Positions 2,811-36,359 of a DNA stretch of 64,000 nt are shown piece by piece. Source of the stretch: a virus. A program made the translations under genes and the position numbers. The stretch is from positions 1 to 64,000 of the IMG/VR virus record IMGVR_UViG_3300042991_001118. One strand, given 5' to 3'. Under the pieces are notes generated by a model that was not told where the DNA came from, did no database searches, and saw nothing but the letters and a program-made list of their open reading frames with translations. Positions within the stretch are counted from its first letter, which is position 1. The number at the start of each line of letters is the position of its first letter.

Positions 2811-5800
2811 GGCTTACCAACCTTACCTAAATTGACCATGCGTGGATAGAACGACATGGCATTGGGATGTGCTTTCGCACCGAACGCCACCCCATGATAA
2901 AACACGACGATATCCGCATTAGACTCTGCTAAAATATAATTCCCTGGGACATCCACACATGGCATACATCTCTGTTGCGAAGAAACTTCAAAACTAGATT
3001 CATATAGAATGGAGGTATCAACTTCTGATAAATTTTCCCTCAAAGCATTCAGAAAGAATGGCAAATCTGTCAACTTATTACGTGAAGGAAGCGAATGCAT
3101 CCCCTTATTGGACTGCAAATAATCTTCCCATTTCTCTTGATACTTCCTCGCTAAGACATACGCCTTGGCATCGTACTCCTCAATCAACCTCTCAATATCT
3201 ACACCATATTTGTACAGAGCCTCCTCGTATGCGACATCCGCACTAATTTGGACACCACGACCTTCTGGATGTTTTAAATCAAGAGTTTTTGGACCAGAAG
3301 TCCTAACCGTTACCATATGCTTCGCCCTGTCCGATTTCCAAAGCTGAATGGCCGCATAAATATCACGGAAATTTATTGTAGGCTGCCCAGCAATAGGTCG
3401 TTTCCCCCACAAATCCTTAAAAATTTGGAATAGAGATAGAGATGGGCGATCCTTTGGCATAAAATTTTTGAATAACGGCCACAACTTGCGAGTCTCATCC
3501 TGGTGTGCTCGGTACTCATCATCAATCAGTTTTTGATACTCAGCTTTGTATTCCTCAATGAATTCCTGTCTCTTCCTACTAATTTCCTGGACACCATCAG
3601 ATTCACTCAATGATGAAGCAGTAAGCTCACTGGATAAAAGAATATTCCCTAACGAATCTCTCATGGATTCAGACTTATCCGTAAAAATATCAATTTTTTT
3701 TAATAATAATACAATCGCTAACCACATTGGAAGCGCACCGATAAGCCAAGTAACGCCACTAAAAATAGCAATCTGCATTATGATAGCGACTAAAATACAC
3801 CATGCAGGTAAAATCTTATCTATAAATCCACCAATCCAAAGTATTGTAGCCTCTATTGGACGAAGATACCATATGGATTGTATCCGTACAGCATCCTCAA
3901 TATCACTCTGGCTATACCCATACTTCTCGGCAAGGGAAAGAACTATCGATTTAATCTCCTCTGGACTTTTATCTTTAAGGTCTTGAGCTATTTCATTAAC
4001 ACGTTTTTGATGGTTCCCCTGGACGATTTTCTCCCACATTATCCGGAGCGATCCTATAACGTTGTCTACGACACCCTCGTTTAAACATTCTGGACGTATC
4101 GCGGAGCTACTTTCTAAAGTATCTTGATTTTTTAAATTGGGATACCTCTCAAAAATCACATTCTTGACCTCTTCCGTTTCGATTTGGGTCTGGGAATACA
4201 ACGCCAACATCGCGAGAGAATTCGCAGCCCAACGTTCCGTGTGCATTGGATATTTGCGATATTTTGGTAAGGCGAAATCTGAATCCGGTAGCTCGTCAAA
4301 ATCATCATCAGAATTTGTGAACTCAACACACTTAGAAACAATTACTACAAGCCAAAGGAACAAAAAGGATAATCCTGGAGTCAACGCTCCAATGGGAACA
4401 AGAGCATCAGCCGTTTTCAAAACCAAACCCAACGCCAAAAAACAAGCCATAATGAGACAAGCCGAAGCATTATTAAAGGTTTTCCAAAGCCATTTATAAA
4501 CAGAATCCCATGTCTTTGCAAACCAGCCCCAGCCTTCATTTATCGTAGCCTCATGCATGACATTCTCTGGAATATTTAAACTCTCTCGAATTTCATCTAA
4601 CGTATCCCGAAGCTCTTTTGGCTGCATCCGACGTAAACGAGAATACTCATTCAAAATATAACTCTTGTGGTCCTTAACTAGAGACCACAACTCAGATAAA
4701 GCCTCGTCTACTGTCCTTTCAGTGAGATACAAACGAGACATGGTAAATAAACTTTCATTGTTGGAAAATTTCTCTTTTCCACTAGAATCTCTCGATTTTT
4801 TCTGATCCTCCATGTCTTGTTTAACGATATTTAAAATATCCTGTTGCAATTCCTTTGATATCTCAGTATTCTTTTTCAGCAACACACGGGTGCGTATCTG
4901 AATCAAAAGATAAGCAACTATCCCCTTTTCCAATCCACCGAATAACCAAGAAAAAACATATAATTCAACAGCTAATACTAAACAACCCAGAACAAGTATA
5001 GACAACAATATTACAACAACAGATGTTGTACCAAAAAGTGTAGGCTTATCATGATAAACCTTGGCAAAAAGCCCAAGGACGTTATTATAAAAATCTTCCA
5101 TCATGGAAGATTCCGATAAGCTCTCATGTATTTTATTCTCTGATATTCCAAACTTCTGTTGTACGTAGGAAATTGCCTCTTCTTGCTTTTGTGGAGAATC
5201 CTTCAACTCCAAGAATTTATTCCAAATTGCGTCTTTGCTTTTCTCAATTGATGACAAAAAATTATCAAAAAATCTGGATGCAACATCCTCATTTAGATAA
5301 CTCTCGGTTGTATAAGACGCAAACCGTCCAGTTTTATAATCACTTTGCGTAAGCCTAGAAGGCTGCTGTAAATATTTTTTTTGTCCCAAAACCTCATCGA
5401 CGAATCCTTCAATTGAACTCTCGAGCCAGCCTATGAGTTTCCCTTGGATACCGTCATTATATTCATCTTCCGCCTCTGCCTGCGTGATATCTTTCTCTTT
5501 CGCGAGTCTATCTAACTCGTCTTCCTTTTGCTGCAACTTCTCTTCATATTCCTGTTTGATTCGTTCTAGTTCCTTCTTCGCTGCCTCTCCTTTACTCTTT
5601 TTATTCGAGTCATCCGAATTCACTAGAGAACTGATAAAAGTCTTTGCAGAATTCCACTTCTCCTTTACCTTGTCAGAAATATCGGATAGCCAGCCCTCAT
5701 CTAGGGAAATGGATTCATTAGCCACCATTCTTGTCTGCCATTCTAAATTAGCCTCCCAATTCTCAATTACTGTCTCAAGATCGCCAAGAACAGAATTTTC

Positions 5801-9750: not shown

Positions 9751-10776
9751 TTACTTCTTTAAATCATATTTAAATCTGCACCACTGCAATGGATACGCAG
9801 GTAAAAAATTCTGATGTGCAACAATGACATCCCCAAATTTAGCAGAAAATCCAGTATTCGATCCACCAGACATCGTAACATCATCCAGGAACTCCCACAT
9901 TTCCGCCGCAATCTTCCGAATCAGCCCTAATCTTTCTAAATATTGAATCGGCACTGCAAAGAAATGCGGTTCGCAAATCTCTGGAGCAATAAATTGTGTC
10001 GGATACTCGAATGAAATGGGTTTTATCCCAGAAGAATAATCTCTTGCATAAAATTTTCGCAAAGAACCATGTGATGTAAAAACTCCAGAAACCTCTGTGG
10101 TCAAACGAAAAAATAAACATAAAGAGCTTTCTCCCTGAAAATCAATTTCTGACACCAAACTCCCAACATTATTGAATCCGACATACCCTTGTTTACCTGA
10201 TATCTTAACAGCGAATTCGTTGATATCATGATACAAAAAATCATCCTGGCTAGACTCTATTTTTGTCAAAACACAATTTTGTGAAGAAACTATGCTCATT
10301 TCATTACGTGGATTCCAACCATCTGTCTTTCTCCACGAAGAATATAGCAATCCTCCAATCCAATCCTGTATCTGATTCTTCCCACGACAACCAATTCCCA
10401 AATGGAATTCAAAACTGTCGAGGGAATTATCCCAATACTGAAAAGGATTCCCAAAGCTGGCTCGAGCCAAGACATCTTTACTGTGAAAAAATCCTGGAGA
10501 TGAATACATACCACGCTGATATGTATCACTACCTTGGATGTCTTCGGTATATTGAAATAATGCCAAACCAGAAGCAACACGATAAAAAATATCAGGAGAC
10601 GGCTCACCTACCATGCTTTTATCTCCGCCATTCGCAGTCTTTAAAGCAGCAAATCCAAACTCGTGTGGGAAACGGCCATCTTCTAATACTGTAAAATCGA
10701 AATTTACTTCTGACATTTTTTTCTTCCTTATAATTCCTAACCCTTTTAGTATCTTATTTTTTTGCATCTTTGTCAA
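9751..10776 (-). CDS. Hypothetical protein (possibly structural)
   Basis: 341-aa ORF in the same operon. Confidence 0.6.
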   Translation of the reverse strand: MTKMQKNKILKGLGIIRKKKMSEVNFDFTVLEDGRFPHEFGFAALKTANGGDKSMVGEPSPDIFYRVASGLALFQYTEDIQGSDTYQRGMYSSPGFFHSKDVLARASFGNPFQYWDNSLDSFEFHLGIGCRGKNQIQDWIGGLLYSSWRKTDGWNPRNEMSIVSSQNCVLTKIESSQDDFLYHDINEFAVKISGKQGYVGFNNVGSLVSEIDFQGESSLCLFFRLTTEVSGVFTSHGSLRKFYARDYSSGIKPISFEYPTQFIAPEICEPHFFAVPIQYLERLGLIRKIAAEMWEFLDDVTMSGGSNTGFSAKFGDVIVAHQNFLPAYPLQWCRFKYDLKK

Positions 10777-10911
10777 CTACAAATTTTTAGCCATATCTTG
10801 AATGGATATTTTAGTTGCATTTTTATAGCAGAAAGGGTAAACTACACGAATAGAGATAGCGTATGCCACGATATGAATGCAAGCATTATGCAAGAAAAAC
10901 AGAAAGGCAAA

Positions 10912-11132
10912 ATATGAAAAAATTCTTAACAGTATCTACCTGTGCCGAAATCTTCGAGGCTCCAATCAGCACAATTACAAGGTGGTGCAAAAAAGGGAAT
11001 ATCGCGATGGAATATAGTGATGGGAAGAACTGCTCTTATGTGCCGATTCTTGACCTGATCAATTGGCTCCACTCCACAGATAGACTCCCACGCCCTAAAA
11101 AACAAAAATCTGACAATATCCAAACAGATTAG
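10912..11132 (+). CDS. Excisionase/MerR-like helix-turn-helix DNA-binding protein
   Basis: FLTVSTCAEIF...STITRWCKKG HTH_17-like pattern; probable start MKKFLT after GAAAGG. Confidence 0.65.
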
Positions 11133-11232
11133 CCTAAAATGTAGTATAATTTACCTAGAGACATTTACAAGCAGTTTGCAATAAAAAATCCTCTAAAAAC
11201 CTTATAAATATTTAATTTTTTTACACTTTTTG

Positions 11233-11261
11233 TTGCAAACCGCTTGCAAATGTGGTATAAT
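11233..11261 (+). promoter_or_regulatory. Strong sigma70-type promoter for the early island
   Basis: TTGCAA-17 bp-TATAAT with an extended TGn and an AT-rich upstream element. Confidence 0.8.
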
Positions 11262-11269
11262 ATAGATAG

Positions 11270-12050
11270 TGAAAAATTAAATGAGTTTCACGTCTGGTGA
11301 AGAGCTAGAAAACTTAGCTTGGCAGCCCAGAACCCTTAAAAATGCCCAGAAGAATCCAAGATGGCACAAATAAGTGCAAGGATTAGGGCGGGTGGACGGG
11401 ATGAACGCTAAGAATACTCTAGCGACTCCAACCAGTGCAGAAGTCGGTTGCCCCACTATCCAGAAATGGAAGATGGTGAAAGAAAGACGAAAGTCTTTTA
11501 GAAACCTGAATGACAAGACTTCTAAAAAGGCGAGGCGCAAAGACACACAACGGTGGCTTGTAAGATGTGTGTCCAAAAGAAAAGCCTAAAGCGCAAAACC
11601 CTACATGTGAGTCCCGTAGACAATCAAGGAACTTAGAAAAATCCTCTGGTTGGGTACGAGGATGTCAAGTGAAAAGACTCGAAGACAGAGGTGCTAAGAC
11701 CGAATCTTCTCGAATGAGTCCGCACTGGCCGAACCACGAGGTTCAGGTACAATCTTTCAGTGCGCCGCTTCTTGGTACGCGCAATGCGAAAAAATGGGAA
11801 GACTTCCCAATACCACTAAGCGTAACCCAAGGTCATCTCAGGGAACTAAGCCCGAACGACCTTCCAGAGTACCTGGCGAAAGGGGAGATTGCGAAACACT
11901 CCTAAACGAAAGTTTAGGGCCGAACTCGAAAGAGGGAAGGATACCTGGCGAAGTGTGAAAGACACGAAGTAGCCATGAAGACAACGTAGGGTGTGATCTC
12001 CGAGGGTGGCTTGCCTAAGCCGAATCGGAAGAGCAAAAAAGAAACTCCTT
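11270..12050 (+). ncRNA. Candidate large structured ncRNA (~780 nt)
   Basis: No credible ORF; GAAA-capped hairpins (11483-11498, 11901-11918, 11925-11934); long-range stem 11598-11604/11986-11992; lies between a promoter and a terminator. Confidence 0.65.
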
Positions 12051-12065
12051 TGATTTAAAACTACA

Positions 12066-12118
12066 AAAAGTGGAGTGCTTTTTCAATAACCATACGAAAA
12101 AGCTATACTCCGCTTTTT
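12066..12118 (+). terminator. Terminator-like hairpin
   Basis: aaaagtggagt...actccgctttt stem followed by a T run. Confidence 0.55.
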
Positions 12119-12428
12119 GTATTAAATGGTTAATGTTTCGAGTAAGCAGAAAAAAAAATGCGATTATAAGTCCTGTTTCTAATGGTAGATAACAGGCAGA
12201 GAAGTAATGAATTTTCTGCCGTTGCGAAACAACAAAACAAATATGACAAGAATAGGCTGCGCCCTACTCCTCACGGAGTGTGCTGTGTATGTCTTGGTTC
12301 CCACGCGGTACCGAGACACGTCTGAGTTTACTCAGATGGGTTGGATTCCCCAGGTCATATTTCAGCAACCAATTAACAAATTTTTCTGAGGCATCCCAAT
12401 GCGGAGTAAGTCCTCAAAGGAGATTTTT

Positions 12429-12740
12429 ATGGAACTTGTTGTAATTATTTTTTCTAGTTTATCTTTTCTATTCACAATTTTTGGTTGGATAACTGCTATG
12501 TGGCAGCTAAAAGACCTGCGGAAACAACTGGCAGCCAACAAATATTCCATTTACCTCTTCATTGATGGTAAGTGGATTCTGGCACCACAAGAAGCAATAG
12601 ACGCAGGTCTTGCCCTCGTCGAGGGACGACAGGCGTATGGAGCTATCACAAGCGGATTGTGTGACCACATAGTGGACAGGAAAAAAGAAAAAATTTACAT
12701 GTTCCCTAAAGGAGCTAAGGTAGAGATACCTACCGAATAG
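12429..12740 (+). CDS. Hypothetical membrane-anchored protein
   Basis: AAGGAG RBS, N-terminal TM helix. Confidence 0.7.
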   Translation: MELVVIIFSSLSFLFTIFGWITAMWQLKDLRKQLAANKYSIYLFIDGKWILAPQEAIDAGLALVEGRQAYGAITSGLCDHIVDRKKEKIYMFPKGAKVEIPTE

Positions 12741-12904
12741 CTCCCATCCACTGAACGACAAGCGTTCTATCCTGGTGCAAGTCCAGGCAGTGGATCAATT
12801 AAGGCTTCGCCGTGATGCGCCATGAAGCACACGGCACAGGAAAAAAAGAACAAACAATTTTTGAGGCTTCCAGACAAATGGTATAAGTCCTCAAGGAGGT
12901 CATT

Positions 12905-12967
12905 ATGGGCTTCGTAATTGCTATGGCGGTTTGGGCCGCCATTGGCTATGCCCTCTTTGCGGCATAG
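12905..12967 (+). CDS. 20-aa hydrophobic microprotein MGFVIAMAVWAAIGYALFAA
   Basis: AGGAGG RBS within motif D; manual translation. Confidence 0.55.
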   Translation: MGFVIAMAVWAAIGYALFAA

Positions 12968-12969
12968 CT

Positions 12970-13923
12970 CAAACCCCTGTGACCCTAACACACGTTAGCG
13001 GTCGGCTCAGTTAAAAAACCACACTAAAGGGTACTGGGCGTTAAGTGTGGAACGGACGTGATTATGAGTTCTTCCGGTGGAAGCGATATCATTACGCGTA
13101 AGACAAGGTCTGAAACGTAATGGAGTTAAGTACACCAGAAGAAAAACGAGTAAGAATATCCGAATCCTGAACGTATTGGAAAGAAGACAGCATTTCTCGA
13201 TGTCGATTATAAGACCTGAATCTCACGAGAGAAACAGGCTGAGAAGCAAAGAAAACTGTTGTAAAAATTGGGAAAGAAAAAGCATTAGTAGGCGCGAATA
13301 ATATGGATTAGACGATAAGCCCTATCATTTTGAATTTTGGAACCATGCGGAAAGCCAAGACGTTCCGGAAACCTTTATATAATAAAACGAGAGCAAACCA
13401 GCTAAGGAGGGTTTGCTCCCAACGTGAATTACCCGTTGTTGCCACGCCCTACGTGATTATAATAGTCGCCTCTGTTGAGAAACAATCTCATGCTTATCTC
13501 AGAATAAGACCGAAGAGATATTAGCCTCAACATGCTGCCGCCAAGGCGTGCTGGACCCCATCGCAAAAAGTAAAACAATACTGGCAAGTTAATCCAAGTC
13601 TCCATAGAGAAGTTGGTTTTTTTGCGTGAGAAATGGAAAGCAAAACGAAAGAGACACCCAGCCGTGCGCACACCAAGAAGCGAAGCATGTGTTGCTCCTT
13701 ACTCCCTTGGAGGAGTAAACATTGGAAAATAGATTATCTGTATTCCAGTGGTTCCTTATGTGAACTGGACAATAAATCTGCTGCTCGATCTCGTTCGGAC
13801 AGTCTAAATAATTGTCGACTATAGGCACACTGTGCTTATCTGGGAGCATACCCCAGTTAGACTATCACGTTCTACACCCCTGGTACCGATCCTAATGTGG
13901 GACGGCGGCCAGGGTCTTTTTTT
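12970..13923 (+). ncRNA. Second candidate large structured ncRNA (~950 nt)
   Basis: ORF-poor; multiple hairpins; possible end-to-end pairing 13054-13062/13864-13872; ends in a hairpin plus T7 tract. Confidence 0.45.
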
Positions 13924-13972
13924 ATTCCATTTTTGAGGCAGTCATCGACATAAGTCCTCAAAGGAGTTTTGT

Positions 13973-14212
13973 ATGAAAAAGATAAAAAAATCGTTTATAG
14001 AAATATCTCCCAAACTTTTTGGGACGGAAGAAAAAGTAATTTTTAAAAATGTGGGAAAAAAATCCATCGAAATAGTGGGGATTTCCCCAATAATTCCAAG
14101 AGGGAGGCAGCTACGGAGTATCGAAATCTATTTCGTGGCACAGTTTATTATTCCACGAAAAAAAAACTGGAAAGAAAACGCAACCAGCGTGCTTAAAAAA
14201 TTAGGATGCTGA
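13973..14212 (+). CDS. Hypothetical protein
   Basis: AAGGAG RBS behind motif D. Confidence 0.65.
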   Translation: MKKIKKSFIEISPKLFGTEEKVIFKNVGKKSIEIVGISPIIPRGRQLRSIEIYFVAQFIIPRKKNWKENATSVLKKLGC

Positions 14213-14687
14213 TTCTTCAAGTTGTAAAACCCGATGCCCCACGGAGATGACTTCAATGTAACGGCAATACTAAGAAAAAGAATTCCATGCTGGAAGCCAA
14301 TGTCCGGCGCATGGAACGGAAGGCTGCACCGTGGACATGAAATGAAAGCAGGACGAATAATCCAATGCAATAAAGGCATTTATTGCATTGGATATATGGC
14401 ATGGACGTATGCAGGACATAAATTCAAATTTGACATCTTCACGGGCTGTTAAACTGAATTAGTATCCTCGACGACGTAAAAATAGATTTGGTTAGCTTTA
14501 GCTATATCTAACCATTCCATATAAAACTTCACGATAAATGCCATCGTGAAGACTAAAGCTAAAGGCACAATTTAACCCTCGTTAAACACGCCATTATAAA
14601 GACGTGTCCTGGAGAATAACCAGGATTGTGCAATACAAACCCTGCTAAAGTAGCAGGTACTTATCCCAAAATTTTAAGGAAAAATAA

Positions 14688-14927
14688 ATGGAAAAATTAA
14701 GTTTTCTTACCGAGGTACAAGGAATTTTGAGGTCCAAAGATGTTGGGCACCTATGCAGTCTAGAAAAAAAGTATGACGTACCCAACATAAAGTTGCATCC
14801 TCTAGAAAAAGTTTTGCTGGAAGTATGTTCACACCGCAGGATGCAACTCAAGCGGTCCAAAAATAATACGAGATTCAATGAGCAATATTGGTGGTGGCAA
14901 TACCTCCAGTATTGCAAAGACGAATAA
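14688..14927 (+). CDS. Hypothetical protein
   Basis: AAGGA RBS, 79 aa. Confidence 0.6.
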   Translation: MEKLSFLTEVQGILRSKDVGHLCSLEKKYDVPNIKLHPLEKVLLEVCSHRRMQLKRSKNNTRFNEQYWWWQYLQYCKDE

Positions 14928-14943
14928 CCCATCACGCAAAAAC

Positions 14944-15969
14944 ATGCACCGCAGAGATAACTTCAAAGCGCGTGCTCTATGTATCTAGCCCGTGAAGCTA
15001 AGACAAAAACACCTTAGTCTTCACGGGCTATTTTTTTATCTCTACAAATTTTTTACAGGGCTTCCCACACAGGATATAAGACCCTAAAGGAGTTTTTATG
15101 GTAACGTTTCTACGGGCATTATATAACGCCACACAGTGCACGGGACTGCAAGGTCATTACAACTTAAATAGTTGTATCCTGACACAAGACTCCGTCGCAG
15201 CCAGCGACGGAAAGAAATTGTATGTCTCTCACCCTACCGAATATCCCTGGAAAGAAATTTCTCAAGGAGAGGAAGAAATATTTCTGTTCCCCCTTGGGAA
15301 ACAGAAACAAGACTGGTCCACCCCGATAATCAAAAAAAATCAAAAGGAGCAACCAATACTCCAGGCACTAGGGTGTGACTGGGCAATCCAAACGCCACAA
15401 AACACCACATCTAAAATGTTGGGATTTAAAAAGATGATGTCCGTTTTCCCAACTATCGAAAATCCATACTATATGCCAGTTTTGGCAGCAGGATGGAAAG
15501 AAATAATGAAATGGAAAAAGAAACACGAAATGGGCAGAAAAAAGAAAGATTTCTGTCCCGTGGTGTTTTCTCAAGTGGACGGAGGGCTATACGCCCAGTG
15601 CTCACGAGAGCCAAATCACCATCCATCGGATGGTGAACCAAATTACGTACCAATAGATGAAATCCCCATAATCCATGTGGTGGAACGCTGCCGAACGACC
15701 GTAAAGGCGTTCGCGATAAACATGTGTCTTATTCCGAAGCACATGCCAGCACCACAAGAGTTGTGCGCCGATGCATCGTATGAGAACAGAACATCTGTGC
15801 TTCTGCGATGGGGTAGAGAAAAAATATTTCTGATCGGGCTTCCCCTGATCGAGGAATAAAAAAATGCACCGCAGAGATGACTTCAAAGCGCGTGCTCTAT
15901 GTATCCTAGCCCGTGAAGCAAAGATGAGTCACAACGTGACATGTCTGAAACTTCACGGGCTTTTTTTTT
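14944..15969 (+). repeat. Motif A: hairpin plus intrinsic terminator, 2 copies (14944-15037, 15864-15969)
   Basis: Near-identical atgcaccgcagagat...gcgcgtgc followed by the agcccgtgaag/cttcacgggct stem and a T tract. Confidence 0.8.
15098..15859 (+). CDS. Hypothetical protein, weak resemblance to a beta-clamp-like domain
   Basis: YNLNS...VAASDGKKL resembles Y-x-LNG...VATDGHRL. Confidence 0.5.
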   Translation: MVTFLRALYNATQCTGLQGHYNLNSCILTQDSVAASDGKKLYVSHPTEYPWKEISQGEEEIFLFPLGKQKQDWSTPIIKKNQKEQPILQALGCDWAIQTPQNTTSKMLGFKKMMSVFPTIENPYYMPVLAAGWKEIMKWKKKHEMGRKKKDFCPVVFSQVDGGLYAQCSREPNHHPSDGEPNYVPIDEIPIIHVVERCRTTVKAFAINMCLIPKHMPAPQELCADASYENRTSVLLRWGREKIFLIGLPLIEE

Positions 15970-16023
15970 GTTTCTACATTTTTACAGGGCAGTCTACGGA
16001 CATAAGACCCTAAAGGAGATTTT

Positions 16024-16200
16024 ATGTACAAAGTATTTGCAAGAACATGGTGGAAAAAGAATGAAAGCTGACCAGACGGACTAGATCCGCAGGCCGGAAA
16101 ACCCACCACCATAAAGAAAAACATTCCAAGCGGAGGCGTTCGCAATCGCCAAAGAGTGGAATAAAAAAAATAAACCGCATTGGCTTATCACCGATGCGGT
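16024..16200 (+). pseudogene. Disrupted small phage gene
   Basis: Good RBS; MYKVFARTWWKKNES*PDGLDP (TGA at 16069); plausible continuation AEAFAIAKEWNKKNKP in another frame. Confidence 0.45.
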
Positions 16201-16266
16201 TTTTTATTCCCTTTAACTTTTTTTTGCGTGAGTAGGAAAGCATTCCGAAAACGCAGGAGGAAAAAA

Positions 16267-16938
16267 ATGTTTATACATCTAAGCATGCCCAGTAAGATGC
16301 CTTGCCCAGCTTGGTCGCTTCCGACCAACATGTGCATCTCTGGGCAACGGTTCATTAGGGAAGGTGCTCTTCTCAATAAGCCCTACGTTTGCCGCGTTTG
16401 TTACGCAAACTGTGGGACGAGTTCTTTCCCTGTATCAATCGAACCATTGCAAAAAAACTGGGAGGCATACGCCTCCAACCCACAAAAGTGGGTAAGGGAA
16501 ATATCTACGAAAATATGGGCAGAGTGCAACTGCTTATATTTTCGCTGGTTCCATTGTGGAGACATACAAAGTCCAGATATGCTGGGGCATATCATGGATG
16601 TTGCCGAACGGTGTCCCAGAACGTCATTCTGGATTCCCACAATTGAAAAAGAAATGGTATTGATGGTCTTAAAAGACCGGAAAGTACCAAGCAACCTCAC
16701 AGTCAGAGTCTCTTCCCCAGAAGTTGACTCTATGCCACAGCCGTGGCAAACACCTGGGGTGTGCAACTCCATGGTGTCCTATAAAGAAAAATGGACATGC
16801 CCAGCGCATACAACCGGAAATCAATGCAAAACCTGTCGCGCCTGCTGGGATAGAAAGGTTGAACTTGTGGCGTACCCATTGCACACGGGATGCCATCTCC
16901 AATCCGATACGACAGCGCGGCGTATCGGACTCATCTAA
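16267..16938 (+). CDS. GP88-like Cys-rich phage protein
   Basis: SKMPCPAWSLP, CxxCYA, FRWFHCGD, WIPT, NLTVRVS, CPA, CxxCRACWD motifs; AGGAGG RBS. Confidence 0.75.
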   Translation: MFIHLSMPSKMPCPAWSLPTNMCISGQRFIREGALLNKPYVCRVCYANCGTSSFPVSIEPLQKNWEAYASNPQKWVREISTKIWAECNCLYFRWFHCGDIQSPDMLGHIMDVAERCPRTSFWIPTIEKEMVLMVLKDRKVPSNLTVRVSSPEVDSMPQPWQTPGVCNSMVSYKEKWTCPAHTTGNQCKTCRACWDRKVELVAYPLHTGCHLQSDTTARRIGLI

Positions 16939-17027
16939 AAAAACAGAGACATGTCAGGCAAACAATCTGATGTGTCTTCCATTTCCCCACTGTAAATCCA
17001 ATAAATTCTTTTTTGAAAGGAAAAGAT

Positions 17028-17828
17028 ATGGAAAACCAACAGCAGGAAAAAATCAGAAAAACACTGGACGGAATCATCCAGTTGTTCCAAACAGGGAACG
17101 TTCCCCAAGCGATTTCCATCGCGATGTTCCCTCAAAACGATGTCCCCTCAGCCAATTGGTCCCTGTCAAACAGAATCATCATGGCGATTAACGGGACATC
17201 AGATGCCAGAGGCTTCCAACAATGGAAGCAAGCTGGACGGAACGTCAAGGCAGGAGAGAAAGCATTTCACATCTTGGCTCCCAAGATGATTAAGAAGAAG
17301 ACAAAAACCGATGCAAATCAGGATCAGAAAGACGAATTTATGTGTATCGGATTCCTGACCATACCTGTGTTCAAAGTAGAACAGACGGAGGGAAAACCAG
17401 TCCAGTACGAAAAACTGGTTCTTCCAAATCTCCCATTACTGGCGAAAGCACTGGAATGGCACATCGATGTCATCCCAGTGTCTGCACATGGCGAATGGCG
17501 TGGCGCATACAGCTACAACGAGTTGGGAATTGAGAATATCAAGCTCGCCACGCCACATGAGAAAACATTTTTTCATGAACTTTCTCACGCCGCGCATAAA
17601 CGAGTGCTCGGAGAATTAAAAAAATGCCAAGACCCCAAACAAGAGATTGTTGCGGAACTGGCCGCGCAAACCCTGTCCCAACTCGTCGGAATCGAGACAG
17701 AAAGCTCTCTAGGAAATTCCTACGAATACATCAAAGAATATTCCGAGAAAATCGGTAAAGACGTAGGGAAGGCTTGCCTTTCAGTGCTTTCAGAGGTTGA
17801 GAAGATTTTAACCCTCATCCTCGAATAA
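17028..17828 (+). CDS. ardC: ArdC-family antirestriction protein (ssDNA-binding plus zincin-like domain)
   Basis: WSLSNR, RGFQQWKQAGRNVKAGEKA, HELSH, EIVAE motifs. Confidence 0.8.
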   Translation: MENQQQEKIRKTLDGIIQLFQTGNVPQAISIAMFPQNDVPSANWSLSNRIIMAINGTSDARGFQQWKQAGRNVKAGEKAFHILAPKMIKKKTKTDANQDQKDEFMCIGFLTIPVFKVEQTEGKPVQYEKLVLPNLPLLAKALEWHIDVIPVSAHGEWRGAYSYNELGIENIKLATPHEKTFFHELSHAAHKRVLGELKKCQDPKQEIVAELAAQTLSQLVGIETESSLGNSYEYIKEYSEKIGKDVGKACLSVLSEVEKILTLILE

Positions 17829-17993
17829 AACCCATGCACCGGAGCAGTGAAAAACCTGCCCGTGTGCAACACGCCACACCATTTAACGGAGCCGCATGTT
17901 GCGTTAGCACTTCGTTCCGCTTAGAGTGTAGACGAATGCCGTCGAAATAAGCTGTCATAGGAGTGCAACGCACGGAAAACTGCGGAAATCTAT

Positions 17994-18323
17994 ATGGAAA
18001 AAATCGAAATATTAAAAGTCCTAACAAAAGTATACGAGGCGACCACACCACAAGAAGCACAAAAAAAACTTTTTTTGGCAGAGAAACTATCAAAGTTCAC
18101 CCTTCCCTGTCCAATGTGTTTTTCCTCTGACTACGAAGGATCTCCAGAACGATCCCAGTTCGGGGAGAACATGCATTTTTCGTTCGAGACGCAGAGTTTT
18201 TTCTGTGAGGATTGTGGAAATGAATACTCGGCGGACGCGATTCTGACCGAGCTATCCGAAAAAATCGAGGAGTTTAGTAGGAACATTGAGGGCTTCGCTC
18301 TCCTCCTGCCCTTCCTCGAATAA
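17994..18323 (+). CDS. Zn-ribbon hypothetical protein
   Basis: CPMC...CEDC; start follows motif B. Confidence 0.7.
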   Translation: MEKIEILKVLTKVYEATTPQEAQKKLFLAEKLSKFTLPCPMCFSSDYEGSPERSQFGENMHFSFETQSFFCEDCGNEYSADAILTELSEKIEEFSRNIEGFALLLPFLE

Positions 18324-18399
18324 ACCAAAGGCAACGTCCAGGTGAAACATCCTGGATGTTGCAGCACGAATCAGTCTTCTCATGAAAGGAGAAAAAACC

Positions 18400-18861
18400 A
18401 TGAGAACACAACTCTTTGAGGATGCGAATGCATCCCACTCCCTCTTCGTAAATGCCATAGTGAATGAGGGTGGAGAGTTCAAAGCGCGGACCTTCACGAA
18501 GGTGGCGATTGAACTCGTGCAGAGAAATGGCGAAAACCAGGCAACCCAAAACGTGTCCTTCTTCTTGGACATGGGCGACGCTCTAGCCTGGTTCACAATG
18601 ATGTCCGATACAACCTGGACGATGGAGCTAACCCAGTTCAAAGAATTCTCTGGAAAAACTCGGGGTATAAAAATTTCCCCAACCGGAGGGAAGGGAGTCC
18701 GAGTCTCCATCCAGGAAACAAACGGAACCGAAAAAAAACTCATTTACTTTGACCTGAGTAAGGTCAAAGCATTGGAAATGGCACTCGTTGTGAGTGCCTT
18801 CACAAAGGTGTTTTTCAACAAAAAATTTAGCCAATTATTGGCTAAGGAGGAAATTCAATGA
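18400..18861 (+). CDS. Hypothetical protein
   Basis: AAGGAG RBS, start MRTQLF. Confidence 0.7.
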   Translation: MRTQLFEDANASHSLFVNAIVNEGGEFKARTFTKVAIELVQRNGENQATQNVSFFLDMGDALAWFTMMSDTTWTMELTQFKEFSGKTRGIKISPTGGKGVRVSIQETNGTEKKLIYFDLSKVKALEMALVVSAFTKVFFNKKFSQLLAKEEIQ

Positions 18862-19079
18862 ACGATAGAAACATGGATAGAAACAGTGACCCTGCCAATC
18901 TTTTAAAAAACCTAGGCATGTGCAAAACCATTCCAGAGTTGTTGGCGGACTCGGTCCGCAACAACGATTCCCTCGCGGTACGAATCGAGCAGCCATCCGG
19001 CTGCATAACGATCGGACATAAACCTAAGACCTCAAATTCTCGCCGCGAACTAATCATAAAGGTCGAAAGCGACGACTAA
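18858..19079 (+). CDS. Hypothetical protein
   Basis: AGGAGG RBS, ATGA overlap with the upstream gene. Confidence 0.6.
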   Translation: MNDRNMDRNSDPANLLKNLGMCKTIPELLADSVRNNDSLAVRIEQPSGCITIGHKPKTSNSRRELIIKVESDD

Positions 19080-19417
19080 GAAAAAAGGGACTGGACTGGA
19101 TAAAATCCTGGACAGTCCAACACGCGCCGAAGGCATATCGCCGAAGGCAAAACTGAAAGGATAATTATGTCTGAACAACGAAAAAAAATCATGTTGTCGC
19201 AGTTAGCGGAGGCAATCCGCAAGACAACACGGACGTGAAAAAAGAGCAGGGTCAGAGTGGAATATCTCTACCCTCGCTAACATATCCCGTACCATAATCA
19301 CACTATTTAATGGATCCACATGTTGCGTTAGCACATCGTGCTGCTTAGAGTGTAGGCGGATGCCGCCGAAATAAGCATGTAGCGGTCGTACAATGCACAG
19401 AAAACTGTGGAAATTTT

Positions 19418-19615
19418 ATGTCTGAAAAAAAGCAATATCTCTGCATGGTCATGGCGTATACCATAGTACCATGCTTATTGGGTCTTTTTGGAAAAGACGG
19501 ATTCCTGGCTTCTTTCACGGAAGCGGGAATCGCCATCCTGGCATTCATTGCCGGAGGCGTTGGATTTTTTCTGATCGGAAAAACTATCATAGCCATCGAA
19601 AAATGGCTTGATTAA
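19418..19615 (+). CDS. Small 2-TM membrane protein
   Basis: Hydrophobic 65 aa, between motifs B and C. Confidence 0.65.
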   Translation: MSEKKQYLCMVMAYTIVPCLLGLFGKDGFLASFTEAGIAILAFIAGGVGFFLIGKTIIAIEKWLD

Positions 19616-19806
19616 ATGAAAAAAGAGCAGGGTCAGAGCGAAATACCTCTACCCTTGCTACTAGGCACAGACAGGGTATTATGCCCTATCTGTCTTTTTT
19701 TAAGGACACAGGTGCAGAGCACATCGTGCTGCTTAGAGTGTAGGCGGATGCCGCCGAAATAAGCATGTAGCGGTCGTACAATGCACAGAAAACTGTGGAA
19801 ATTTGT

Positions 19807-20424
19807 ATGTTAAAGTTTATAACAAGACCAGCATCCAAGCTGGAAACAATTTCATCATTCAGGATTGAACAAATCACTGAGCATATCCACACAAATATCA
19901 GATCGTGGGAATGCGAATGTGTCGTCATCAACGAAACACAAACTGGGAAAGCCTGGTATGATGGAGTAGTAGTGGTATCTAATTTCGGACCAAATCATGG
20001 AATGGGATGGGAAACATGGATTCTCGCGAAAGAAATCCGTTCCAACAATCCCCAAACGCTATTCTGGTATAGCGAAGGAATCCGATGGGAATGGCTCCAC
20101 CACGAAACAAAACGTGATGTAAGGCAAGAGAAAATGGTTATACTGCCAATTTCGCAAAACAACAGGATGGACAATAGATTCCATCTAAAGGACATCCTGA
20201 AAAATAGAATGGCAACATGTCCAATCCCTATCGCTCCATCTATCCCAGGATTCTCCCTAGCGGAAATCCAAAATCCAGCGATGGTAAATGTTTCTGCGCG
20301 AAATGCGCAGAGGAAAGAAAAAACACATAAAAAACTAAGCGGAGGTCGGAGCGAAACGCTTCCCTTCGCTATCACGAAACAGAGAGGTCGAAACCTCTCA
20401 TTTTTTTTCAAAAAGGAAATTTTT
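19807..20424 (+). CDS. Hypothetical protein, open in frame into RadC
   Basis: Start follows motif B; the 3' part crosses hairpins and a T tract, so the true end is uncertain. Confidence 0.4.
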
Positions 20425-20919
20425 ATGAAAAAAGCAGAAATGGCGGACAGACTCCGCCTCCTGGAGATAGAAAATTCCTCTCTCAGAGAGGAATTAGAAA
20501 ATCTAAAAAGTCTATCTCCATCTCCCAAAAAGTGGCTCCAGCCACAAATGTATGGGAGTAAAACCGTAAACGAAAGATACCAGGTGCTCCTGCGAAACAA
20601 GATGCAGGAGTATTTCTACGTGATTCTGTTGGATACAAAAAACAGAATAACGCAAGAAAACCTGGTGTCTATAGGAACCCTTAATATGTCCCTCGTACAT
20701 CCACGCGAAGTTTTCGCCCCAGCCATCGAGGCCCGGGCTTGTTCAGTTATTTTGGTCCACAATCATCCGTCAGGTGACCCGACACCAAGCTATGATGACA
20801 TGGCTTTGACGGAACGGCTGGTCGAAGTCGGAAAAATGGTCGGGATCGAAGTCCTAGACCATATCGTCATCGGTGAAACATACTCAATGTCCTTAAAGGA
20901 ATTGGGTGTGATAAAATGA
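20425..20919 (+). CDS. radC: RadC-like JAB domain protein
   Basis: QEYF...LDTKN...GTLN.SLVHPREVF...HNHPSGDPTPS..D...LDHIVIG; own AAGGA RBS. Confidence 0.9.
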   Translation: MKKAEMADRLRLLEIENSSLREELENLKSLSPSPKKWLQPQMYGSKTVNERYQVLLRNKMQEYFYVILLDTKNRITQENLVSIGTLNMSLVHPREVFAPAIEARACSVILVHNHPSGDPTPSYDDMALTERLVEVGKMVGIEVLDHIVIGETYSMSLKELGVIK

Positions 20920-21013
20920 AAAAAGAGCAGGGTCAGAGTGGAATACCTCTACCCTCGCTAACATATCCCGACAGGGTAGTATGCCCTGTCTTTCTTTTTT
21001 TAAAGAATGTCCT

Positions 21014-21217
21014 ATGACACCAGAAAGAGCAAAACAGCTCATTGAATGGATGAAATGGGAAAATGGAATGTGCGGATGCTTAGGCGCAAAAAAGCCGCAA
21101 TTCCCAGAGGAAACCAAGCAAGAAAAAGAATTCCTCTTAGGTGAATTAAAGAAAAAATCTGGGGAATACTGTATGGCGTATCTCCTGTACGAGATCGCCA
21201 ATAGTAAAAACCAATAA
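21014..21217 (+). CDS. Hypothetical protein
   Basis: Short ORF, probable start MTPERA. Confidence 0.5.
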   Translation: MTPERAKQLIEWMKWENGMCGCLGAKKPQFPEETKQEKEFLLGELKKKSGEYCMAYLLYEIANSKNQ

Positions 21218-21375
21218 AAACACTGCCTCAGTGTGCCAATACCACATTGAGGCAAATACCACAATGTTTAAAGGAGCCGCAGGTGTAGAGCACTTCGTGC
21301 TGCTTAGAGTGTAGACGGATGCCGTCGAAATAAGCTGTAACAGGAGTGCAACGCACAGAAAACTGCGGAAATTTT

Positions 21376-21771
21376 ATGCATCCACCAATATATCCCCATT
21401 CTTACGAAGCAATATTGTGGGAAGGCAGTGTATACTGCCTGTCCTGCATCCCACCATGTGCTAGAGAATCCGAAATTTCCCCAATATACGCAGAATCCGT
21501 GTGGGATACCCCACCAGCCTGCGAAAATTGTGGAAAAATTCACGACTACATGGAGATCACTCAGAAAGAGTGCATCTCCTGTGGCACATGGCACGAGGAA
21601 AATCCCCAAGTCAAGGTCCAATGCGGACCCTGGGGAAGAGAAGGCATATGTCCAAATTGTTTTGAGAAGGCCAAGTGGCCGTTACACACAAAGACAAAAG
21701 GAACATACGACAGAGAACAAGGAGACCGCCAGAAATGGACGGTCTTCTATGTAGGACATATCCTCGAATAA
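21376..21771 (+). CDS. Cys-rich (multiple CxxC) hypothetical protein
   Basis: Four CxxC motifs; start follows motif B. Confidence 0.7.
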   Translation: MHPPIYPHSYEAILWEGSVYCLSCIPPCARESEISPIYAESVWDTPPACENCGKIHDYMEITQKECISCGTWHEENPQVKVQCGPWGREGICPNCFEKAKWPLHTKTKGTYDREQGDRQKWTVFYVGHILE

Positions 21772-21937
21772 AACCCATGCACCGGAGCAGTGAAAAACCT
21801 GCCCGTGTGCAACACGCCACACCATTTAACGGAGCCGCATGTTGCGTTAGCACTTCGTGCTGCTTAGAGTGTAAGAGGATGCCTCTGAAATAAGCTGTCA
21901 CGGAAGTGCAACGCATAGAAAAAATGCGGAAATTTGT

Positions 21938-22162
21938 ATGTCTGAAAAAATATATAAGGGATACTTGAAGATTGGATTCCAATACTTTCTTCAAATACCT
22001 GACCCATCATCAAGATGGGGATTCCAAATATACGACGATGACCAGGCGTGGGATGGGGGGATCGGTTTGTTTAATCTGATCCCTAGAATCCCAGTGAAAG
22101 AAAGCAAAGTCCCTAAAGAGGATAGAGAAAGGTTAGGTTGGATATTGAAAGAACCAACCTAA
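21938..22162 (+). CDS. Hypothetical protein
   Basis: Start follows motif B. Confidence 0.65.
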   Translation: MSEKIYKGYLKIGFQYFLQIPDPSSRWGFQIYDDDQAWDGGIGLFNLIPRIPVKESKVPKEDRERLGWILKEPT

Positions 22163-22163
22163 C

Positions 22164-22213
22164 AAAAAAAGACCCCTAACCGGAAAGAAATTTCCGGTTA
22201 GGGGTCTTTTTTT
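22164..22213. terminator. Bidirectional intrinsic terminator
   Basis: A7 - perfect 16-bp stem gacccctaaccggaaa/tttccggttaggggtc - T7, between convergent genes. Confidence 0.9.
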
Positions 22214-22224
22214 GTTTTCCCTCC

Positions 22225-34646: not shown

Positions 34647-34659
34647 ATTTTGCTCATTT

Positions 34660-34830
34660 ATAAAAAATTCCGAAGAATAATTCCACACGAAGGTGGTCGG
34701 TCTCCCTGAACTGGGTGCAGGATTGGCATAGAGCCTGGGATTGGGAAGTTCATCCCAGGGTACTACCTGCATCCGTGTGTCACGTCCCTACTCAACTAGC
34801 AAGCAGGGTAACCCTGATAACTACAGCGTT
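34660..34830 (-). ncRNA. omegaRNA scaffold with putative 5' guide
   Basis: tagttgagtag...taccctgggatg...cccaatcccaggctct...gggagac upstream of iscB, resembling omegaRNA scaffolds; boundaries approximate. Confidence 0.65.
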
Positions 34831-36098: not shown

Positions 36099-36359
36099 TC
36101 GATAAAAGACGAGGGGTTTGCAGTCTGGGATAATTGAATTCCAAAATTCAATTTCAAAAATCAGAAAAAAGTTCTGGGGTGTAGCGACCCCCTCCACATC
36201 TTTTCCATCCGCCGTAAACCCTTCGGACACCCCTCTAAGCCAACCCCTGCCTAAGCCCCTGAGTGCCGCAAAGAGGGGACAAAAAAGACCCAACAAGACC
36301 AAAAGGAGACAAGGGGACACCTTTCACCACACTCGTACACTTCAATAGAAGCCAGTGGC

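What the first reader, a model, noticed from the sequence alone, without database searches (positions are those of the whole stretch)
10863..22213. Early island run by one promoter and a toolkit of repeated RNA-like structures
Seen: an 11-kb plus-strand block in a minus-strand context, from a strong promoter (11233) to a perfect terminator (22164). Most genes are bracketed by motifs A/C (after stops) and B/D (before starts). Internal terminators exist, but I saw no internal consensus promoters. Repeat homology extends into the last codons (ATCCTCGAATAA ends both the ArdC and 21376 ORFs). Known analogies: PeSL cassettes that shuffle genes in T4-type phages, HK022 put antitermination RNA, and hairpin ssDNA promoters of plasmid leading regions. 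Inference: an undescribed RNA-controlled, recombination-shuffled anti-defence cassette array.
Basis: partly seen in the sequence, partly recalled or inferred. Interest (0 to 1): 0.85.

Follow-up and report, generated by a model that had tools for sequence, protein, structure and literature searches.

The report
Hyper-structured phage early anti-defence operon
An 11-kb early operon of an uncultured tailed phage carries anti-restriction genes between re-used folded spacer elements, and the whole transcript, coding parts included, is far more self-paired than the rest of the genome, a trait I found no description of for a DNA phage.

Summary
Window 11233-22216 is a plus-strand unit inside minus-strand genes of a 116-kb myovirus contig. 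It starts at a near-consensus sigma-70 promoter and ends at a perfect 26-bp terminator. Between unrelated ORFs (ArdC, RadC-JAB, GP88 and orphans) lie re-used modules:
- 12-13-bp hairpins 6-8 nt after stop codons;
- 7-8 internal intrinsic terminators;
- two leader types before start codons, a small hairpin abutting AAAGGAG and a ~95-nt domain between a GGAG and the AUG.

The repeats occur nowhere else in the genome or in the searched collections.

New here: the whole unit is hyper-structured. Mean z is -3.1 against -0.4 for other genes of the phage. Synonymous-codon shuffles give a median z of -5.6 against -1.4. The signal switches on at the promoter and off at the terminator.

The "RNA toolkit" reading is partly supported. 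A few compensatory changes exist, and the 95-nt domain folds better on the sense strand. The flanked genes are not paralogues, so the modules spread separately from the genes. "Anti-defence" rests on ArdC and RadC only.

The closest known systems are EGeRS1 leaders of pLS20 plasmids and PeSL cassettes of T4-type phages. It is a member of neither.

The parts
10863..11132 (+). 89-aa ORF upstream of the promoter. By eye it looks helix-turn-helix-like, and it may be a regulator. It lies outside the hyper-structured unit.
   Evidence: ORF. No Pfam or PHROG hit. Positive codon score. Windows here have z of +0.6 to +1.5.
11233..11261 (+). Main promoter, TTGCAA-17-TGgTATAAT, with an A/T-rich upstream stretch. 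A ~19-bp inverted repeat (11170-11250) covers its -35 element.
   Evidence: 10/12, TG present. Sequence read.
11266..12428 (+). Long ORF-poor structured leader or ncRNA candidate 1. It contains a terminator-like hairpin at 12064-12125, motif E at 12161-12211 and leader D1 at 12384-12428.
   Evidence: z of -5.44 for 11266-12130. ORFs inside have negative codon scores. No Rfam match. 3 of 11 tetraloops are GNRA.
12429..12740 (+). 103-aa ORF with a hydrophobic N-terminus, of unknown function.
   Evidence: Positive codon score and AAAGGAG 7 nt upstream. No family.
12969..13972 (+). Long ORF-poor structured leader or ncRNA candidate 2. It contains motif E copy 2 (13204-13253), a terminator at 13880-13926 and leader D3 (13930-13972).
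   Evidence: z of -3.26. ORFs inside have negative codon scores. E copies aligned.
12384..16023 (+). Span holding five copies of leader D: a small two-tier hairpin with RTAAGWCC in its 3' side, abutting AAAGGAG and then the ATG. The TAAG core starts at 12407, 12884, 13951, 15077 and 16003.
   Evidence: (D5, D9). Two stem pairs switch GAGG/CCUC to AGGG/CCCU. The motif is confined to the island.
14938..15040 (+). Module A (48 nt) plus a strong terminator (17-bp stem, U7). A second copy lies at 15858-15972 and a decayed copy at 14234-14460.
   Evidence: D11, 96%. (z of -6.7 and -4.9).
14332..14395 (+). Internal promoter-like site TGGACA-18-AATAAT, overlapped by a 34-nt palindrome (14360-14393).
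15098..15859 (+). 253-aa orphan ORF.
   Evidence: Finds only itself among 5.8 billion proteins. Nearest Atlas clusters are unnamed viral clusters.
16024..16164 (+). 46-codon mini-ORF with an in-frame TGA at codon 16, followed by a terminator at 16172-16208.
   Evidence: TGA is a normal stop elsewhere in the genome.
16267..16938 (+). GP88-family protein (PF17338), of unknown function.
   Evidence: E 4.7e-19. (phrog_1392).
17028..17828 (+). ArdC-type antirestriction protein with an ssDNA-binding N-domain and a zincin-like C-domain that keeps the HExxH motif.
   Evidence: 783 homologues, the best 60% identical, many named ArdC.
16946..21811 (+). Span holding post-stop hairpins H1: 12-13-bp stems with 7-8-nt loops, starting 6-8 nt after the stop codon. 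They lie at 16946-16978, 17835-17868, 18331-18362, 19245-19278, 19626-19659, 20926-20959, 21224-21254 and 21778-21811.
   Evidence: dG of -15 to -22 kcal/mol. There are five different stem sequences. Loops in three stem families fit YGRAAWAY. Only 8% of other ORF ends in the genome have a hairpin at or below -14.
17872..17993 (+). Leader B copy 1, a ~95-nt three-helix domain between a GGAG and the AUG. Other copies lie at 19296-19417, 19690-19806, 21257-21375 and 21815-21937.
   Evidence: 92.7% of cells pair, against 23-44% when partners are slid. 5 pairs change on both sides. All five copies fold 4-8 kcal/mol better on the plus strand.
17994..19615 (+). Orphan ORFs at 17994-18323, 18400-18861, 18858-19079, 19167-19238 (23 codons) and 19418-19615 (membrane-like).
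19807..20919 (+). 370-codon open frame. An orphan N-part reads through a terminator-like hairpin (20382-20408) and an SD into an in-frame ATG at 20425, which starts a RadC-like JAB domain.
   Evidence: RadC, E 1.3e-40, residues 256-371. Sequence read..
19663..19702 (+). Internal terminator. A paralogue lies at 20968-21006.
   Evidence: D4, 85%..
21014..22162 (+). Orphan ORFs at 21014-21217, 21376-21771 (Cys-rich) and 21938-22162.
22161..22216 (.). Bidirectional end terminator: 26-bp perfect arms, with A-run and T-run flanks.
   Evidence: (I1).

Best explanation
This is the host-RNA-polymerase-driven early operon of a tailed phage. It is transcribed from one strong sigma-70 promoter as a long, deliberately hyper-structured RNA.

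Two ~1-kb untranslated structured leaders come first. About 16 mostly orphan genes follow, among them ArdC and RadC counter-defence functions. The genes are separated by a small set of re-usable RNA modules:
1. A 12-13-bp hairpin placed 6-8 nt after the stop codon. It would act as a 3' barrier or processing mark, or as a protein-binding site through its conserved loop.
2. Leaky intrinsic terminators that grade expression down the operon.
3. A leader that sets translation. It is either a small hairpin abutting a strong SD, or a ~95-nt domain whose closing helix brings an upstream GGAG next to the AUG (a split ribosome-binding site), or whose mini-ORF opens it.

Shown:
- the anatomy;
- the excess structure, including at synonymous sites;
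- its coincidence with the promoter-terminator span;
- the modules being far more alike than the unrelated genes they flank.

Inferred:
- that the structure acts in RNA;
- that it serves transcript survival, for example against RNases, Rho or RNA-targeting immunity;
- that terminators are read through;
- that module homology lets genes be swapped.
For: Unit boundaries.

Hyper-structure:
- 200-nt windows inside the unit have mean z of -3.06, with 51% at or below -3.
- Sense windows of other genes have mean z of -0.37, with 2% at or below -3.
- The tool's own 200-shuffle runs give z of -6.2 and -5.9 inside two ORFs.
- z flips from about +1 to -3.9 at the promoter, and from -8.3 to +1.4 at the terminator.
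- Synonymous-codon shuffles give island ORFs z of -1.7 to -9.0 (median -5.6), against a control median of -1.4.
- 20 ArdC homologues elsewhere have median z of -0.36, against -5.3 here.
- Another ArdC phage contig is flat.
- Perfect-hairpin density is 2-2.5 times the rest of the genome.

Modules:
- Hairpins sit at a fixed distance after stops, which is rare elsewhere in the genome.
- Leader B pairing and compensatory changes, with a plus-strand advantage in 5 of 5 copies.
- Leader D shows two compensated pairs.
- The island ORFs are not paralogues, while their flanks are 80-100% identical.

Gene content: ArdC, RadC.
Against: - No related genome exists in the data. Covariation therefore rests on 5 or fewer paralogous copies, that is, few independent events.
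- The excess structure is about equal on both strands (z of -3.06 vs -2.58), so RNA is not distinguished from single-stranded DNA, except for leader B.
- Leader D hairpins are weak (-6.6 to -11 kcal/mol) and show no strand advantage.
- With 7-8 good internal terminators, one promoter would need read-through or antitermination. Neither is shown.
- One internal promoter-like site exists (14332).
- 'Early' timing is inferred from the promoter type and the gene content only.
- Most genes have no known function.
Confidence: 0.5

Rival explanations
1. The D and B elements are promoters for a phage-encoded or phage-modified RNA polymerase. Together with the terminators in front of them they would form terminator-promoter cassettes of the PeSL kind, so each gene would be its own middle-phase transcription unit.
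For: - Terminators are followed within 30-60 nt by D and a start codon.
- One D copy reads TTTACA-17-TATAAG.
- The conserved core RTAAGWCC looks like a -10 element and is confined to the island.
- B also carries ATAAGC.
- Very large proteins of unknown function (1745 and 2189 aa) could hide a polymerase.
- PeSL variants with degraded or mis-spaced boxes are described (PMC4122927).
Against: - The spacing between the -35-like and -10-like parts varies from 13 to 18 nt, and 4 of 5 D copies fail a sigma-70 reading (my reading).
- The -10-like hexamer ends in G.
- B has no conserved boxes.
- Promoter-like hits are not above chance.
- This reading does not explain the excess structure inside ORFs, nor its exact fit to the outer promoter and terminator.
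Confidence: 0.2
2. The structure acts in single-stranded DNA rather than in RNA. Possible roles are hairpin promoters, priming or recombination sites (integron attC-like or plasmid leading-region-like), or protection of a strand exposed at entry or during replication.
For: - Both strands show the excess.
- H1 hairpins show no strand preference.
- ArdC binds ssDNA, and ArdC islands in plasmids sit in regions that enter as ssDNA (PMC11541004, PMC8708921).
- The one-promoter array with structured sites that overlap ORF ends recalls integron cassettes.
Against: - The genome is that of a contractile-tailed phage (sheath, portal, major head protein). Such phages inject double-stranded DNA (established knowledge).
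- Pfam scans of the island's larger ORFs and of the flanking and other large ORFs found no integrase, the only recombinase-type hit being the IscB at 33-35 kb. I read no GTTRRRY-type core sites.
- No -35/-10 pair forms within the B stems.
- Leader B favours the sense strand in 5 of 5 copies.
- The signal's limits are transcription signals.
Confidence: 0.12
3. The repeats and hairpins are neutral by-products. They would arise from gene conversion among intergenic copies and from template-switch mutations that perfect quasi-palindromes in a heavily transcribed region, with no dedicated function.
For: - Copies that are 100% and 98% identical suggest recent conversion.
- Both strands are equally affected.
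- There is no conservation outside this genome to show selection.
Against: - Module position is exact relative to stop and start codons.
- Stems differ while shape and loop are kept.
- Pairs change on both sides.
- The bias at synonymous sites is strong in 7 of 9 ORFs and stops exactly at the unit's ends.
Confidence: 0.08

Closest known systems
EGeRS1 leaders of the pLS20 family of Bacillus conjugative plasmids (PMC8708921)
   Same: - A repeated, GC-richer region full of inverted repeats lies directly upstream of the ribosome-binding sites of several establishment or anti-defence operons, ardC among them.
- It is predicted to fold in RNA or ssDNA.
- It has no sigma-A promoter inside.
- It blocks read-through in one orientation only.
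- Its mechanism is unknown.
   Different: - EGeRS1 is 400-600 bp and heads five separate operons of a plasmid. Here the modules are 45-165 nt, of several kinds, between nearly every gene of one phage operon, plus two ~1-kb leaders.
- ArdC itself is not preceded by B or D.
- No sequence similarity to plasmids was found, and the pLS20 record could not be fetched.
- Excess structure inside ORFs is not reported for pLS20.
PeSL (promoter-early stem-loop) cassettes of T4-type phages (PMC2839356, PMC4122927)
   Same: - Repeated composite intergenic elements sit between orphan genes in a plastic early region of a large myovirus.
- Homology between elements offers sites for cassette gain, loss and swap.
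   Different: - A PeSL is a stem-loop plus a sigma-70-type promoter with N17 spacing. Here only one of ten leader copies reads so.
- The elements here are larger and structured, and they overlap the first and last codons.
- Indels between relatives, which define PeSL function, could not be examined.
T7 class I (early) region with RNase III sites (established knowledge, not checked here)
   Same: - Strong host promoters at the start and one terminator at the end.
- A polycistronic early RNA beginning with an anti-restriction gene.
- A hairpin between each pair of cistrons, which after cutting stabilises the pieces.
   Different: - T7 sites are about 20-bp or longer irregular duplexes cut by RNase III. 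Here stems are 12-13 bp with a conserved loop.
- Here there are also internal terminators and 5' leader domains.
- T7 coding regions are not known to be hyper-structured.
Split ribosome-binding sites of T4 genes 38 and 25 (established knowledge, not checked here)
   Same: A hairpin between the Shine-Dalgarno sequence and the AUG brings the two to working distance when folded. In all five B copies a GGAG/GGAU/AGGA directly precedes the closing helix, and the AUG lies 7-8 nt after it.
   Different: - The intervening fold here is ~95 nt with three helices, against ~20-27 nt in T4.
- It is present in five copies.
- It carries a 1-17-codon mini-ORF, so a leader-ORF switch is an equal alternative.
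Lambda nut (boxA-boxB) and HK022 put antitermination RNAs (established knowledge, not checked here)
   Same: - Cis-acting RNA hairpins in an early operon that contains terminators.
- H1 loops (UGAAAAAC and the like) recall the GAAAA loop of boxB.
- Motif E is a conserved linear stretch followed by a hairpin.
   Different: - Nut and put sites occur once per operon, upstream of the terminators, with 5-bp stems.
- Here the hairpins follow each gene.
- No N-like protein is identified.
- Nothing tested here supports antitermination.

Membership tests
PeSL cassette (T4-type phages) | A stem-loop followed by a sigma-70-type early promoter (-35, N17, -10) in the intergenic space | tested here: not met
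   Only 15045-15081 reads TTTACA-17-TATAAG. In the other four D copies the spacing is 13-18 nt with poor -35 elements, and B has no conserved boxes. The definition comes from PMC4122927.
PeSL cassette (T4-type phages) | Repeated between variable or orphan genes of a plastic region | tested here: met
   Modules flank unrelated orphan ORFs.
PeSL cassette (T4-type phages) | Indels or replacements between close relatives map to the elements | not testable with these tools
EGeRS1 (pLS20 family) | A conserved repeat immediately upstream of the RBS of several establishment genes, rich in inverted repeats and with higher GC than the replicon | tested here: met
   D and B end at the RBS or AUG of ten genes. 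Island GC is 0.42-0.46 over most of its length (0.40 in the first 2 kb) against 0.38-0.40 in the flanks. Hairpin excess is shown.
EGeRS1 (pLS20 family) | Length of 400-600 bp and sequence similarity to pLS20 EGeRS1 | tested here: not met
   Modules are 45-165 nt. blastn of the two long leaders against 72,556 plasmids found no match. A direct comparison failed because the record is absent from the collection.
EGeRS1 (pLS20 family) | Orientation-dependent block of read-through, with no constitutive promoter | not testable with these tools
   This needs reporter fusions. It was shown for pLS20 in PMC8708921.
T7-type RNase III-punctuated early operon | Intercistronic duplexes of about two helical turns cut by RNase III | tested here: not met
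   H1 stems are 12-13 bp. Cleavage itself is not testable.
Split RBS (T4 gene 38/25 type) | A fold between the SD and the AUG that restores working spacing | tested here: inconclusive
   A closing helix is predicted in 5 of 5 copies, with one compensated pair (GC to AU). The SD-like tract is directly 5' of it and the AUG lies 7-8 nt 3' of it. Function is untested, and a mini-ORF model fits equally well.
Any Rfam family (GOLLD, ROOL, ribozymes, riboswitches, leaders) | A covariance-model match | tested here: not met
   There were no gathering-score hits in 64 kb. Only noise appeared at E up to 10 in 10.7-22.4 kb, 11.2-14.0 kb and one B copy.
Integron cassette array | An IntI integrase with attI/Pc next to the array, and attC sites with R''/R' cores | tested here: not met
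   The Pfam scans of the island's larger ORFs and of the flanking and other large ORFs found no tyrosine recombinase. No GTTRRRY/RYYYAAC pair brackets the elements (read). No attC model was available.
Plasmid ssDNA promoter (Frpo type) | A long imperfect hairpin whose stem recreates -35 and -10 boxes, on DNA that enters single-stranded | tested here: not met
   No box pair forms in the B or H1 stems. The genome is a tailed phage.
ArdC antirestriction protein | An ArdC N-domain plus a C-terminal zincin-like domain with HExxH | tested here: met
   PF08401 at 1.3e-07, a weak PF18818 hit, and HELSH present. Identity is 60% to proteins that sources name ArdC. Activity was not tested.

The most novel reading that the evidence does not exclude
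A double-stranded DNA phage has shaped an entire 11-kb early operon, synonymous sites included, into ordered RNA structure, in the way some RNA viruses shape their genomes. This would let its first counter-defence messages survive host RNases, Rho or RNA-targeting immunity. Translation of individual cistrons would be gated by a new family of modular riboregulators: a 95-nt split-RBS domain and loop-conserved post-stop hairpins bound by a phage or host factor.
Probability: 0.3. Interest if true: 0.85.

Novelty: new variant of a known kind. Interest (0 to 1): 0.62.

Why it matters
Early counter-defence regions decide whether an infection succeeds, yet their regulation is known for only a few model phages and plasmids.

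This island offers three things:
- A compact, testable case in which nucleic-acid structure is selected across a whole operon, coding sequence included.
- Three or four short module types that could be tested as portable parts for transcript stability and translation control.
- A phage counterpart to the unexplained EGeRS1 leaders of pLS20 plasmids. This hints that structured leaders in front of ArdC-type establishment genes may be a wider solution.

If the structure shields messages from RNA-directed defences or RNases, that would be a new layer of the phage-host arms race.

Tried and rejected
Searches for relatives:
- Motif B patterns in viral and metagenome contigs gave 0 hits.
- The neighbour protein at 9751-10776 has no relative in viral contigs.
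- The 253-aa ORF finds only itself.
- The major head protein finds one 4-kb contig at 68% identity and nothing in GTDB genomes.
- 89 loci were fetched, 85 through ArdC, one through the head protein and three from the phage's own contig. Only ArdC coding DNA is shared.
- megablast and blastn against GenBank phages and PLSDB plasmids found no match.

Family searches:
- Rfam gave nothing, at three levels of stringency. There are no tRNAs.
- PHROGs and Pfam left most island ORFs unnamed. The Atlas gave no usable lead.

Ideas rejected:
- Tandem gene duplication as the source of the repeats. The ORFs are unrelated.
- An alternative genetic code as the explanation for the in-frame TGA. TGA ends 24 of 105 long ORFs.
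- Hyper-structure as a general property of ArdC genes or of phage DNA.
- GNRA-loop enrichment as an RNA signature in the coding part. It is absent there and appears only weakly in leader 1.
- Using the z-score of the ~0.9-kb leaders as proof that they are special RNAs. They are no more structured than the island's ORFs.

Full report
CONTEXT
The window is the first 64 kb of a 116,166-base IMG/VR virus record, which CheckV rates 61% complete. The rest of the record encodes a tail sheath, tape measure, portal and major head protein. It is therefore a large contractile-tailed phage. All supported genes left of 10776 and right of 22225 run on the minus strand, and everything between runs on the plus strand.

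THE OBSERVATION
- Promoter. It sits at 11233-11261 (TTGCAA, 17 nt, TATAAT, with TG) and is the best plus-strand match in the region.
- End terminator. The block ends in a 26-bp perfect inverted repeat with A and T runs.
- Repeats. They are real, with self-BLAST E-values down to 1e-66. None lies outside 12.4-22.2 kb of the 116-kb contig.
- Overlap with codons. Repeat homology runs into the last three codons of three ORFs and into the first four codons of two.
- Terminators. Terminator-like sites are three times the shuffled expectation. I read 7-8 good internal plus-strand terminators, near 13880-13926, 14986-15040, 15908-15972, 16172-16208, 19663-19702, 20382-20408 and 20968-21006, perhaps also 12064-12125.
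One internal site scores 10/12 as a promoter (14332-14361) and is overlapped by a 34-nt palindrome. Promoter-like hits as a whole are below the shuffled mean.

ANATOMY
After the promoter come two ORF-poor stretches of about 1 kb (11266-12428 and 12969-13972). The ORFs inside them score negative on the phage's own codon usage. Each stretch ends in a D leader and a real gene.

The intergenic spaces are then built from four kinds of part:

1. H1, a post-stop hairpin.
- It has a 12-13-bp stem and a 7-8-nt loop and begins 6-8 nt after the stop codon.
- Eight copies carry five unrelated stem sequences.
- The loops of three stem families fit YGRAAWAY.
- Only 8% of other long ORFs in the genome are followed by a comparable hairpin.

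2. Intrinsic terminators with U runs.

3. Leader D, five copies.
- It is a small two-tier hairpin whose 3' arm abuts AAAGGAG, with RTAAGWCC conserved.
- Two stem pairs are compensated between the two subtypes.
- The core motif is enriched only in the island.

4. Leader B, five copies of about 95 nt.
- 92.7% of cells pair, against 23-44% when partners are slid by 1-3 columns.
- Five pairs change on both sides, and 0 of 500 shuffles reach the observed covariation score.
- All five copies fold 4-8 kcal/mol better on the plus strand than on its complement.
- A GGAG/GGAU/AGGA always lies directly 5' of the closing helix, and the AUG lies 7-8 nt 3' of it.
- The same purine tract could instead serve a mini-ORF of 1-17 codons that overlaps the 5' arms.

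A fifth motif, E, occurs once in each long leader. It is a conserved linear stretch followed by a hairpin with one compensated pair.

A NEW FINDING
The whole unit is hyper-structured.

Window scans:
- 200-nt windows between 11250 and 22000 have a mean z of -3.06 against dinucleotide shuffles, and 51% are at or below -3.
- Sense-strand windows of other genes of the same phage have a mean of -0.37, with 2% at or below -3.
- The tool's own 200-shuffle runs give z of -6.2 and -5.9 inside two ORFs, against -2.8 for a control gene.
- The signal is absent up to 11000 (z of +0.6 to +1.5). It appears at the promoter and vanishes just after the terminator.

Synonymous-codon shuffles (protein and codon usage kept):
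- Island ORFs give z of -1.7 to -9.0, with a median of -5.6.
- Nine control genes give a median of -1.4.
- Twenty ArdC homologues from other contigs give a median of -0.36, against -5.3 for this ArdC.
- Another phage contig that carries ArdC is flat.

Other measures:
- Perfect-hairpin density is 2-2.5 times that of the rest of the genome.
- The excess is similar on both strands. Watson-Crick hairpins would give that result in any case, so the scan alone cannot separate RNA from single-stranded DNA.
- Because the ORFs are as structured as the two long leaders, the leaders' z-scores do not by themselves mark them as special RNAs. Their lack of coding potential does, along with a weak GNRA-loop excess in leader 1.

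GENES
- ArdC is clear.
- A RadC-like JAB domain begins at an in-frame ATG at 20425, inside a 370-codon open frame that reads through a terminator-like hairpin.
- A GP88-family protein of unknown function is present.
- The rest are orphans.
- No two island proteins are related, although their flanks are 80-100% identical.

The modules therefore did not spread by duplication of gene-plus-flank. They were either moved or homogenised by recombination, or are held by selection. Their combinations are mosaic:
- The C2 hairpin at 19236 is 98% identical to the one at 20917, but only 80% identical to the copy lying between them.
- The B copies on either side of that middle hairpin are 100% identical.

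This is internal evidence for exchange between copies. It is not evidence for gene shuffling between genomes.

WHAT COULD NOT BE DONE
No relative carrying this region exists in the searched data. So I could not test gene order in relatives, module gain or loss, or covariation across genomes.

MECHANISM
I commit to the following reading at about 0.5.
- Host polymerase fires once from a strong early promoter.
- The transcript is built to last and to be partitioned. Post-stop hairpins act as 3' barriers or recognition sites, leaky terminators give a promoter-proximal gradient, and D and B leaders set translation.
- The pervasive pairing protects the message, or keeps Rho from loading on long untranslated stretches.

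Rivals:
- D and B are promoters for a phage-specific polymerase, making PeSL-like cassettes (0.2).
- The structure acts in single-stranded DNA (0.12).
- The features are neutral conversion and quasi-palindrome by-products (0.08).

COMPARISON WITH KNOWN SYSTEMS
- EGeRS1. The nearest described thing is the EGeRS1 leader of pLS20-family plasmids. It is a repeated, GC-richer, inverted-repeat-rich region directly upstream of the RBS of five establishment operons including ardC. It has no sigma-A promoter, blocks read-through in one orientation only, and its mechanism is unknown (PMC8708921). The present elements are shorter, of several kinds, in a phage, and share no detectable sequence with plasmids.
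- PeSL. PeSL cassettes (PMC2839356, PMC4122927) share the idea of repeated regulatory spacers between orphan genes. They are defined by a sigma-70 promoter with N17 spacing, which nine of the ten leader copies here lack.
- Others. The T7 early region, the T4 split ribosome-binding sites and lambda nut are functional analogies from established knowledge. I tested none of them here beyond geometry.

VERDICT
This is a real and unusual regulatory architecture. It is a new variant of the repeated structured spacers seen in early or establishment gene islands, with one feature I found no description of in two full-text paper searches: operon-wide selected secondary structure. The evidence comes from a single genome, so functional claims remain inferences.

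The scan's earlier notes on this genome (the ncRNA candidate, motif B as a split RBS, motif D as a covarying hairpin) concern the same DNA, not other genomes.

Noticed in passing
window 16024-16164: A 46-codon mini-ORF has a perfect D leader and its own terminator but carries an in-frame TGA at codon 16 (…KKNES*PDGLDP…). TGA is an ordinary stop elsewhere in the genome. It could be a pseudogene or a programmed read-through.
   Followed up: partly
window 19807-20919: One open frame of 370 codons runs through a terminator-like hairpin with a U8 run (20382-20408), an SD and an in-frame ATG (20425) that starts the RadC JAB domain. This looks like two cassettes fused by loss of a stop codon.
   Followed up: partly
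window 14332-14395: A promoter-like site (TGGACA-18-AATAAT) is overlapped by a 34-nt near-perfect palindrome. It resembles an operator-controlled internal promoter in front of the 14688 ORF.
   Followed up: no
window 11170-11250: An inverted repeat of about 19 bp has its right arm over the -35 element of the main promoter. It may be an operator for the 89-aa ORF at 10863-11132.
   Followed up: no
window 33174-34772 (minus strand): A 532-aa protein has RRXRR and HNH domains (IscB-like). It lies next to a plus-strand ORF that another reader called an IS982 transposase.
   Followed up: no
window 36098-38980: A 2.9-kb stretch has no ORF of 100 aa or more on either strand. It is the largest such gap in the contig.
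   Followed up: no
window 2804-8041 (minus strand) and L088:3816-10385 (minus strand): Proteins of 1745 aa and 2189 aa lack a meaningful family match. The first was scanned against Pfam and PHROGs; the second was not scanned. They are candidates for a virion or phage polymerase, or for other giant structural proteins.
   Followed up: no
window 45580-45627: A tandem 22-nt unit (…ATGTCCAAAGGTATGGAGTCC…) lies just downstream of a minus-strand ORF end and forms a strong hairpin.
   Followed up: no
window 12905-12967: A 20-codon hydrophobic mini-ORF (MGFVIAMAVWAAIGYALFAA) sits behind a full D leader. It may be a small membrane peptide or a leader peptide for the 1-kb stretch that follows.
   Followed up: no
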